Positions 57,180 through 57,428 of a stretch of DNA of 64,000 nt are shown here, one piece after another. The translations under genes were made by a program, and so were the position numbers. How positions within the stretch are numbered: position 1 is the first letter of the stretch; each line of letters opens with the position of its first letter. Origin of the DNA: an uncultured Chloroflexia bacterium (GTDB lineage Bacteria; Chloroflexota; Limnocylindria; QHBO01); NCBI GenBank assembly GCA_963806695.1, contig CAWDYT010000008.1, forward strand, positions 20,643 to 84,642, read 5' to 3'. The notes beneath the pieces are model-generated. The model had not been told where the DNA came from. It saw only the letters and a program-made list of their open reading frames with translations, and did not search any database.

Positions 57180-57312
57180 GAGGGCAGCCTCCTTGCCATC
57201 GGAGGCGGGCCGGCGTTCAAGAGGTCAGGTCGTCTGCCGCCCATGATCGCGACAGTCTGTTTCCGACCGCTTACCAGTCGATTACCGAGCGAACGGGAGC
57301 TGGACGGCCGAA

Positions 57313-57428
57313 CGCCGGCCCGTTACCGGACCGGCGCTGGCGTCGACCGCCACGACGGGAATGCCACTACTTCAGCCCCGTTATCTTTGGATACAGGTTC
57401 CCCGTCGCCACGGTTCTTCAGTTGTGGC
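57313..57428 (-). ncRNA. Candidate structured cis-regulatory RNA (c-di-AMP/ydaO-like 5' half)
   Basis: Multiple hairpins, two CUGAA motifs and GGGGAACC-stem-GGGGCUGAA; the downstream SD lies in a hairpin. Confidence 0.45.

What the first reader, a model, noticed from the sequence alone, without database searches (positions are those of the whole stretch)
57187..57428. c-di-AMP-riboswitch-like leader and SD-sequestering hairpin upstream of the peptidase operon
On the minus strand: GCCAC/GUGGC hairpin with loop AACUGAAGAACC; GACGGGGAA pairing with UUCCCGUC; an inner CCUGU-AUC/GAU-ACGGG stem followed by GCUGAAGUAG; then UGGCG/CGCCA and CGCCGGUCC/GGGCCGGCG hairpins. The pattern CUGAA...GGGGAACC[stem]GGGG-CUGAA mirrors the 5' half of ydaO/c-di-AMP aptamers, which in Actinobacteria control cell-wall hydrolases. 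The 3' CCGUCAGCUAAC motif is not recognisable, so this may be a variant or a new class. The SD (AAGGAGG, 57188-57194) is paired in GCCUCC/GGAGGC, as expected for a translational ON switch.
Basis: partly seen in the sequence, partly recalled or inferred. Interest (0 to 1): 0.62.

Follow-up and report, generated by a model that had tools for sequence, protein, structure and literature searches.

The report
Small RNA gene beside peptidase promoter
The supposed c-di-AMP riboswitch is really three separate things in an uncultured soil Chloroflexota bacterium: an undescribed ~120-base structured small RNA gene of unknown function, an ordinary promoter, and a short leader that hides the ribosome-binding site of a secreted peptidase-like gene.

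Summary
No Rfam family matches, including RF00379, here or in related genomes. The organism is a Limnocylindria (Chloroflexota) MAG, not an actinobacterium.

Window 57426-57307 (minus strand) is a ~120-nt structured RNA. It has a 13-15 bp stem P1, an inner stem P2, an invariant 20-nt strand ACGGGGCUGAAGUAGUGGCA, and a GNRA-capped 14-bp hairpin P3. In 93 distinct sequences 95% of cells pair and 24 of 33 pairs show compensatory changes.

The RNA occurs once per genome in one family. In most genera it is followed at once by a convergent fumarase-family gene, so it is a free-standing RNA gene, not a leader. Its function is unknown.

The peptidase-like operon sits behind it only in this genus and one other. 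It brings its own promoter: two RTAAGC boxes 11 bp apart, then 9 bp, then a -10 box. This motif gave 81 matches in 41 family genomes against 1 for the reversed control.

The predicted 68-nt 5' UTR carries the invariant GCCUCC/GGAGGC hairpin over the ribosome-binding site. No transcript data could be obtained, so all transcript ends are inferred.

The parts
57460..57487 (-). Conserved upstream block TCCCGG-N6-CCGGGACATTCGCCCCT. It combines an inverted repeat with an invariant 15-mer at about -63 to -35 of the small RNA. Likely a transcription-factor site and promoter element.
   Evidence: Present in nearly all of 120 distinct upstream regions. GGGAC starts 49-50 nt before the ACA in 87 of them, and the spacer between is unconserved. 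It is unique in the window and in the genome.
57432..57437 (-). -10-like hexamer CAGGAT (consensus cAnnAT) of the small RNA promoter.
   Evidence: The A at position 2 and the AT at positions 5-6 are conserved at fixed distance. 5-6 nt follow, then C-A, the predicted start. Inferred; no transcript-start data.
57307..57426 (-). Structured small RNA of ~120 nt (match to model R1). Predicted start is A57425.
   Evidence: R1 match at 101 bits. Covariation. Fold z = -5.7. Frequent G-U pairs fix the strand as minus.
57414..57425 (-). Conserved single-stranded 5' tail ACAAyUGAAGAA.
   Evidence: Nearly invariant columns in alignments A2 and A4. No pairing partner found by a mutual-information scan.
57399..57413 (-). 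P1, 5' strand (pairs with 57347-57361).
   Evidence: 10 of 13 pairs show changes on both sides, and 94% of cells pair.
57377..57397 (-). P2 hairpin: CCUGU (57397-57393), a variable loop, then ACGGG (57381-57377).
   Evidence: 97% of cells pair, but only C-G to U-G changes are seen. One inner loop pair covaries.
57362..57381 (-). Invariant 20-mer ACGGGGCUGAAGUAGUGGCA. It forms the 3' strand of P2 and a 16-nt asymmetric internal loop.
   Evidence: Invariant in 38 genus sequences. The exact 20-mer occurs in 70 metagenome contigs.
57347..57361 (-). P1, 3' strand.
57307..57341 (-). P3: a 14-bp hairpin with GNRA loop G-GUAA-C. Terminator-like 3' end of the small RNA.
   Evidence: 14 of 15 pairs change on both sides. 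The loop varies among GUAA, GCAA, GAAA and GAGA. In other genera the stop codon of the convergent fumarase-family gene lies about 10-25 nt beyond it. The U-tract is poor, and the simple terminator scan does not call it.
57269..57286 (-). Two direct-repeat boxes, GGTAATC (57286-57280) and GGTAAGC (57275-57269), 11 bp apart.
   Evidence: The same RTAAGC-N5-RTAAGC-N9-TAnnnT motif stands upstream of distant paralogues in other genera and families. It gave 81 matches in 41 family genomes against 1 for the reversed control.
57254..57259 (-). -10 box CAGACT (TAGGCT, GAGACT or GATACT in relatives) of the peptidase-operon promoter.
   Evidence: The A at position 2 and the T at position 6 are nearly invariant, and the box sits exactly 9 nt after box 2.
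57180..57247 (-). Predicted 68-nt 5' UTR of the peptidase-like gene. The predicted start is the invariant A57247, and a conserved AUG sits at +4 (57244-57242).
   Evidence: The invariant A is 7 nt after the last T of the -10 box, and the AUG is conserved in all 40 leaders. Inferred; no transcript data.
57234..57255 (-). Candidate hairpin P5 (CUGUCGC/GCGGCAG, loop GAUCAUGG). Its status is unresolved.
   Evidence: Mean 5.25 of 7 positions pair, against 4.85 +/- 0.07 with permuted partners. Its 5' arm lies between the -10 box and the predicted start, which conflicts with the promoter model.
57207..57218 (-). Conserved GAACGCCGGCyC, just 5' of the anti-SD sequence. It repeats the 5' arm of P3. Unexplained.
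   Evidence: Nearly invariant in A3. It does not follow P3 changes in L034, L035 and L048.
57187..57206 (-). Hairpin over the ribosome-binding site: GCCUCC (57206-57201) pairs with GGAGGC (57192-57187). The start codon is at 57179-57177.
   Evidence: Present in all 40 leaders, and changes are wobble-compatible only. It is in the centroid fold.
56301..57179 (-). P0001, a 292-aa secreted papain-like cysteine-peptidase candidate. It is followed by P0002 (56307-55084), a 407-aa lipoprotein-like protein.
   Evidence: No Pfam, NCBIfam or PDB sequence match. The AlphaFold2 model has pLDDT 76. All top Foldseek hits are papain-family proteases, but weakly (E 0.02-0.3, TM 0.2-0.37). Cys113 and His237 are invariant.

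Best explanation
The interval merges three independent units on the minus strand.

(1) Window 57426-57307 is a free-standing small RNA gene of about 120 nt. It has its own promoter: a conserved block at -63 to -35, a cAnnAT -10 box, and a start at A57425. It ends in the GNRA-capped hairpin P3. The RNA is a 13-nt conserved single-stranded tail, then a long stem P1 enclosing P2 and a 16-nt invariant asymmetric loop, then P3. I infer that it acts in trans, as a protein-binding or base-pairing regulatory RNA, through its two invariant UGAAG-containing single strands. Its partner is unknown.

(2) Window 57286-57254 is the peptidase operon's own promoter. Two RTAAGC boxes lie in 11-bp phase, 9 bp upstream of a -10 box. 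This is the geometry of promoters activated by an OmpR/PhoB/WalR-type response regulator. The motif is shared by dozens of genes in the family, many of them encoding secreted proteins.

(3) Window 57247-57180 is a 68-nt 5' UTR in which GCCUCC pairs with the ribosome-binding site. This should keep translation of the papain-like secreted protein low until something opens the hairpin. The opening agent was not identified.

Shown here: the RNA structure, its strand, its distribution, its synteny and the recurrence of the promoter motif. Inferred: the transcript ends, action in trans, the identity of the transcription factor, and translational repression.
For: Structure:
- 95.4% of cells pair, 24 of 33 pairs change on both sides, and 0 of 500 shuffles reach this (38-sequence set).
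- The fold has z = -5.7.

Independence from the peptidase gene:
- The RNA occurs in at least 14 genera of one family, one copy per genome.
- It is absent from the rest of the class and phylum.
- In 17 of 20 loci from other genera, and in 10 of 65 informative metagenome contigs, P3 is followed directly by a convergent fumarase-family gene.
- Other loci have unrelated genes downstream.
- Orthologues of the peptidase-like gene exist only in this genus and one other.

Promoter of the small RNA: the conserved block, the -10 box and the ACA keep a fixed 49-50 nt spacing across an unconserved spacer.

Promoter of the operon:
- The same box-box-N9-TAnnnT motif stands upstream of 31-39%-identical paralogues at other loci.
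- It gave 81 matches against 1 for the reversed control.
- The spacer between P3 and box 1 is variable and unconserved, from about 10 to 150 nt.

Hairpin over the ribosome-binding site: invariant in 40 leaders.
Against: - There are no transcript data.
- P3 has a poor U-tract and is not called by the terminator scan, and neither promoter matches the sigma-70 consensus scan. Read-through from the small RNA into the operon cannot be excluded.
- Candidate hairpin P5 shows modest covariation, yet its 5' arm lies upstream of the predicted operon start. If P5 is real, some transcripts must start further upstream.
- The GAACGCCGGCyC element that copies the P3 5' arm is unexplained.
- No target complementary to the single-stranded segments was found in the genome.
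Confidence: 0.6

Rival explanations
1. New-class riboswitch. The P1/P2/invariant-loop domain is an aptamer for an unknown metabolite, and P3 is its conditional terminator. In this genus read-through would drive the peptidase operon. In other genera it would make antisense RNA into the convergent fumarase-family gene.
For: The layout looks like an aptamer: a closing stem, an invariant junction, and a hairpin within about 8 nt. P3 lacks a strong U-tract. The P1 3' end plus linker partly mimics the P3 5' arm in several lineages (CGGCUCG versus CCGGCUC; read), which could act as an antiterminator.
Against: There is no consistent co-oriented downstream gene. No conserved, covarying alternative pairing was found, and the mutual-information scan shows only P1-P3. 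The operon has its own recurring promoter. The conserved 5' tail outside P1 is more typical of a small RNA.
Confidence: 0.15
2. One long leader. The whole 57425-57180 stretch is a single ~245-nt 5' UTR of the peptidase operon. The GUAAGC repeats and P5 would be RNA hairpins, and there would be no internal promoter.
For: About 70% DNA identity runs over the whole ~310 nt in some 30 species. P5 covaries modestly. The repeats can be drawn as GUAAG-loop hairpins in some species (read). The P3 5' arm is duplicated next to the anti-SD sequence.
Against: The box motif with fixed N5 and N9 spacing and a TAnnnT box recurs at 81 sites, including genes with no such RNA upstream. In paralogues the flanks of the boxes do not keep pairing. 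The P3-to-box spacer is unconserved, and one species carries a 150-nt insertion there.
Confidence: 0.15
3. Divergent member or variant of the c-di-AMP (ydaO) riboswitch.
For: Only the recalled resemblance of CUGAA/GGGG motifs, plus the known link between ydaO and cell-wall hydrolases in Actinobacteria (general knowledge).
Against: RF00379 gives no hit even at E <= 10, and none in 10 related genomes. The fold has 2 helices rather than the two-fold pseudo-symmetric multi-helix core. The element is not tied to the hydrolase-like gene.
Confidence: 0.02

Closest known systems
Free-standing bacterial small RNA genes with their own promoter and intrinsic terminator (Hfq/ProQ-type regulators, or protein-binding RNAs such as 6S and CsrB)
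   Same: It is intergenic and present as a single copy. It has a conserved promoter-like region at fixed spacing, conserved single-stranded segments, and a terminal GC-rich hairpin. It is independent of the flanking genes.
   Different: No target, chaperone or expression data exist. The stem is unusually long, with a 16-nt invariant asymmetric loop. The U-tail is poor. It is not in Rfam 15. It is not SRP RNA, which is found elsewhere in these genomes, and its fold is not 6S-like.
c-di-AMP riboswitch (ydaO/yuaA, RF00379)
   Same: In this genus it lies upstream of a secreted hydrolase-like gene. It has G-rich junction motifs.
   Different: It does not match the covariance model, it has a different and much smaller fold, it is not consistently in a 5' UTR, and it comes from a different phylum.
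Pho-box / WalR-box type promoters (two direct repeats in 11-bp phase replacing the -35 element, about 10 bp upstream of the -10; from general knowledge, WalR box TGTWAH-N5-TGTWAH)
   Same: RTAAGC-N5-RTAAGC lies 9 bp upstream of TAnnnT. It recurs in many promoters per genome, several of them for secreted or cell-envelope proteins.
   Different: The repeat sequence differs. The binding protein is unknown. An alternative sigma factor cannot be excluded. A second arrangement has the boxes 23 nt apart.
Translational control by a 5' UTR hairpin over the ribosome-binding site (as in RNA thermometers and the translational platforms of riboswitches)
   Same: A 6-bp anti-SD/SD hairpin lies 8 nt upstream of the start codon and is invariant across the genus.
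   Different: No sensor domain is attached to it in the predicted UTR. The trigger is unknown.

Membership tests
c-di-AMP riboswitch (RF00379) | Scores at or above the family covariance model's gathering score (38 bits) | tested here: not met
   No hit at gathering on the window. None at E <= 10 on 57050-57700. None at E <= 0.1 in 10 related genomes, while the B. subtilis and C. glutamicum controls ring.
c-di-AMP riboswitch (RF00379) | Pseudo-two-fold symmetric core of many helices with a pseudoknot and two ligand sites (general knowledge) | tested here: not met
   Covariation supports only P1, P2 and P3. The mutual-information scan finds no further helices or pseudoknot.
c-di-AMP riboswitch (RF00379) | Binds c-di-AMP | not testable with these tools
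   Needs in-line probing or ITC.
Riboswitch (any class) | Conserved structured aptamer with covariation and an invariant junction | tested here: met
   The 20-nt invariant strand is shown.
Riboswitch (any class) | Consistently placed in the 5' UTR of co-oriented genes | tested here: not met
   17 of 20 loci from other genera and 10 of 65 informative metagenome contigs have a convergent gene directly after P3.
Riboswitch (any class) | Expression platform with a conserved, mutually exclusive alternative pairing | tested here: inconclusive
   Some lineage-specific mimicry of the P3 5' arm by the linker (read), but no covarying alternative helix.
Free-standing small RNA gene | Own promoter | tested here: inconclusive
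   A conserved block and a cAnnAT -10 sit at fixed spacing to the conserved C-A. The sigma-70 consensus scan finds none.
Free-standing small RNA gene | Terminator at the 3' end, and independence from the neighbouring genes | tested here: met
   P3 covaries in 14 of 15 pairs. A convergent gene ends 10-25 nt beyond it. Caveat: the U-tract is weak.
Free-standing small RNA gene | Detected transcript and identified target or partner | not testable with these tools
The seed search found no UTR targets.
Response-regulator (PhoB/WalR-type) direct-repeat promoter | Two direct repeats in 11-bp phase, about 10 bp upstream of a -10 box, recurring in many promoters | tested here: met
   81 matches against 1 for the reversed control in 41 genomes.
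Response-regulator (PhoB/WalR-type) direct-repeat promoter | Bound by a response regulator | not testable with these tools
   Needs EMSA, DAP-seq or ChIP.
6S RNA | About 180-nt rod whose 5' and 3' ends pair around a central bubble | tested here: not met
   The 5' tail is unpaired, and the fold is two successive hairpins. RF00013 finds nothing in these genomes either, so the lineage's 6S RNA remains unlocated.

The most novel reading that the evidence does not exclude
The P1/P2/invariant-loop domain is the aptamer of a new riboswitch class, or the RNA core of an undescribed ribonucleoprotein, confined to one family of Limnocylindria. Through conditional termination at P3 it would gate read-through into the secreted-peptidase operon in this genus, and antisense transcription into the fumarase-family gene elsewhere.
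Probability: 0.15. Interest if true: 0.7.

Novelty: new member of a known kind. Interest (0 to 1): 0.4.

Why it matters
The work removes a false riboswitch call. It shows that one 240-nt 'leader' is in fact a small RNA gene, a promoter and a short UTR.

It also defines two reusable annotation features for an uncultured and abundant soil and freshwater lineage. One is a strongly covarying RNA family absent from Rfam. The other is a promoter motif that marks a regulon including secreted proteins and competence-like genes.

If the RNA's invariant 16-nt loop proves to bind a metabolite or a protein, it would be a new regulatory RNA class from Chloroflexota, a phylum with almost no characterised small RNAs.

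Tried and rejected
- **Rfam.** The whole window at gathering scores, the region at E <= 10, 19 loci from other genera and 11 paralogue loci all gave nothing relevant.
- **Coding upstream ORF.** The conserved AUG is in frame with the conserved GCC-GGC-xCG-CCU in only 21 of 36 species, and the peptides are not conserved. Rejected as a coding leader peptide.
- **Pseudoknot or third helix.** The mutual-information scan on 93 sequences shows only P1-P3 and clade signal in the P2 loop.
- **Pairing of the P3 3' arm with the downstream copy GAACGCCGGCyC.** A 12-bp duplex is possible in many species, but the copy does not follow P3 changes in L034, L035 and L048. Not supported.
- **Weak R1 hits in other families.** They match only a P3-like hairpin and are not homologues.
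- **Target search.** Matches of 10-12 nt complementary to the single-stranded segments fall only in coding 'DYFS'-type codons.
- **Identity as SRP RNA or 6S RNA.** SRP RNA is found elsewhere in these genomes. 6S is undetectable, and the fold is unlike it.
- **Pairing of the mRNA 5' end with the start-codon region.** It appears in this species' minimum-energy fold but is not conserved.
- **Literature.** No paper holds both 'Limnocylindria' and 'riboswitch'. A first, too-broad search was useless.

Full report
**Setting.** The finding (57187-57428, minus strand) lies in the 377-bp gap between two divergent genes.
- On the plus strand is an aldehyde dehydrogenase (TTG at 57557; Pfam Aldedh, E 1e-171).
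- On the minus strand is a 292-aa signal-peptide protein, P0001 (57179-56301). It overlaps a 407-aa lipoprotein-like P0002.
- A class II fumarase/aspartase-family gene converges on this operon from 53694-55079.
- Record titles of near-identical loci name the organism as a MAG of Chloroflexota, class Limnocylindria.

**Observation.** The main stems are real.
- GACGGGGAA/UUCCCGUC, CCUGU/ACGGG and CGCCGGUCC/GGGCCGGCG are all present, and so is the GCCUCC/GGAGGC pairing over the ribosome-binding site at 57194-57188.
- Two other proposed hairpins, GCCAC/GUGGC and UGGCG/CGCCA, are specific to this species and compete with the conserved stems.

**Not a known RNA family.**
- Rfam 15 gives no hit on the window at gathering scores.
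- On 57050-57700 it gives nothing relevant at E <= 10.
- RF00379 (c-di-AMP) finds nothing in ten related genomes, although it rings in B. subtilis and C. glutamicum.

**Conservation.**
- The whole ~310 nt upstream of the start codon is about 70% identical in DNA across some 30 species of the genus.
- Across the same species the protein P0001 is only 50-62% identical.

**Structure of the 5' part.** I aligned 38 distinct copies of the 5' part. They support three stems:
- P1, 13 bp.
- P2, 5 bp.
- P3, a 14-bp hairpin whose loop varies among GNRA sequences (GUAA, GCAA, GAAA, GAGA).

On this set 94.7% of cells pair, 18 pairs change on both sides, and 0 of 500 shuffles reach this.

**Distribution.** I built a covariance model, R1, and searched with it.
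- It finds the element once per genome in 47 of 52 sampled genomes of the genus, and in about 47 genomes from at least 14 other genera of the same family.
- Weak hits in other families of the class match only a P3-like hairpin.
- A sample of 401 genomes across the phylum finds it only in this family.
- The invariant 20-mer ACGGGGCTGAAGTAGTGGCA occurs in 70 metagenome contigs.

On the resulting 93 distinct sequences 95.4% of cells pair, against 84.5% when shuffled and 37-51% when slid. 24 of 33 pairs show compensatory changes. Frequent G-U pairs fix the RNA on the minus strand. The 119-nt RNA from the window folds into exactly this structure at -64.9 kcal/mol, z = -5.7.

**It is not a leader.**
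- In 17 of 20 loci fetched from other genera, P3 is followed within about 10-25 nt by the stop codon of the convergent fumarase-family gene.
- Other loci have an ABC ATPase or a LuxR-type gene downstream instead.
- Of 70 metagenome copies, 52 precede a P0001 orthologue, 10 precede the convergent gene directly, 3 precede something else, and 5 contigs are too short to tell.
- P0001 orthologues (above 50% identity) exist only in this genus and one other (G128). Elsewhere there are only 31-39% paralogues at other loci.

The structured domain is therefore a self-contained unit in a conserved gap between the aldehyde dehydrogenase and the fumarase-family gene. The peptidase-like operon was inserted downstream of it in one lineage.

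**Promoter of the small RNA.** Upstream of the RNA lies a block, TCCCGG-N6-CCGGGACATTCGnCCCT. It starts 49-50 nt before a conserved C-A. An unconserved 21-22 nt spacer and a cAnnAT hexamer lie between them. I read this as a transcription-factor site plus a -10 box, with the start at A57425. The block is unique in the genome.

**The operon's own promoter.** Between P3 and the ribosome-binding site, the 'GUAAGC' repeats are better read as DNA.
- The same arrangement, RTAAGC-N5-RTAAGC-N9-TAnnnT, stands upstream of the distant paralogues in other genera and families. A variant has the boxes 23 nt apart.
- The pattern gave 81 matches in 41 family genomes, against 1 for the reversed control.
- Downstream genes include P0001 orthologues and paralogues, many signal-peptide proteins, ComEA-like proteins, RNase HII and, in this genome, a comM-like gene.
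- In the window the boxes are at 57286-57280 and 57275-57269, and the -10 box CAGACT is at 57259-57254.
- The invariant A exactly 7 nt after the -10 box (57247) is the predicted start. This gives a 68-nt UTR.
- The geometry matches Pho-box and WalR-box promoters (general knowledge). The binding protein was not identified.

**The hairpin over the ribosome-binding site.** GCCUCC-N8-14-GGAGGC is present in all 40 aligned leaders. The only changes are C to U or G-C to G-U. It appears in the centroid fold, but the UTR as a whole is no more stable than shuffles. Translational repression by default is the natural inference. The agent that opens the hairpin is unknown.

**Unresolved points.**
- A candidate hairpin P5 (57255-57234) shows modest partner-specific complementarity: 5.25 of 7 positions against 4.85 +/- 0.07. 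Its 5' arm lies between the -10 box and the predicted start. Either P5 forms only in read-through transcripts, or the signal comes from shared ancestry.
- A conserved AUG sits at +4. Its reading frame is not conserved.
- The nearly invariant GAACGCCGGCyC beside the anti-SD sequence copies the P3 5' arm but does not covary with P3.
- No base-pairing target and no extra helix was found for the small RNA.

**The protein.**
- P0001 has no Pfam, NCBIfam or PDB sequence match.
- An AlphaFold2 model built on 35 orthologues has pLDDT 76. All its top Foldseek hits are papain-family proteases, but weakly (E 0.02-0.3).
- Cys113 (in YCGPA) and His237 (in GHWI) are invariant.
- 'Peptidase' is plausible but unproven.

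**Verdict.** The c-di-AMP riboswitch interpretation is rejected. What is there is a previously undescribed, family-restricted structured small RNA gene of unknown function. Next to it are a regulon-type promoter and a UTR that hides the ribosome-binding site of a secreted papain-like protein. A new riboswitch class acting through P3 cannot be excluded (about 15%).

Noticed in passing
window 57254-57286; G000 C23:24777-24809 and C2:201226-201268; loci L205-L234: The promoter motif RTAAGC-N5-RTAAGC-N9-TAnnnT defines a regulon in this family: 81 sites in 41 genomes against 1 for the reversed control. Downstream genes include secreted proteins, ComEA-like proteins, RNase HII and a comM-like gene. 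A variant has the boxes 23 nt apart.
   Followed up: partly
L010 (G021:C4), between P3 and box 1: A ~150-nt insertion carries three copies of CCCGATAGATCGGGCC-like inverted repeats. It looks like a miniature mobile element and sits in the otherwise short spacer.
   Followed up: no
10 Limnocylindria genomes (G000, G024, G036, G063 and others): Neither 6S RNA (RF00013) nor the c-di-AMP riboswitch (RF00379) is detectable in any of them. SRP RNA is found normally. The lineage's 6S RNA, if it has one, is unrecognised.
   Followed up: partly
L104-L118 (families f2 and f3), e.g. L110:301-403: A nearly identical hairpin, GAACGCCGGUCCGGCAACGGGCCGGCGUUC, closes a different short stem-loop element in another family of the class. 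This may be a second small RNA or a conserved terminator.
   Followed up: no
window 57242-57244: An AUG is invariant 3 nt after the predicted operon start. The open frames from it are 8-35 codons long and are not conserved in frame or peptide. In about 14 species they stop at a UGA just before GAACGCCGG. Translation from it might open the anti-SD hairpin.
   Followed up: partly
window 56301-57179 and 55084-56307: P0001 has a weak papain-like fold match with invariant Cys113 and His237. It overlaps P0002, a lipoprotein-like protein with no family match, by 7 nt.
   Followed up: partly
L007, L020-L023, L027, L028 (gap of about 930-1000 bp): In several species an extra co-oriented gene sits between the aldehyde dehydrogenase and the small RNA. 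The conserved upstream block stays with the RNA, not with the dehydrogenase.
   Followed up: no
L125, L128 (family f3): The P0001 paralogues there have ~215-nt conserved leaders after the box promoter, with no Rfam match. These may be another structured UTR.
   Followed up: no
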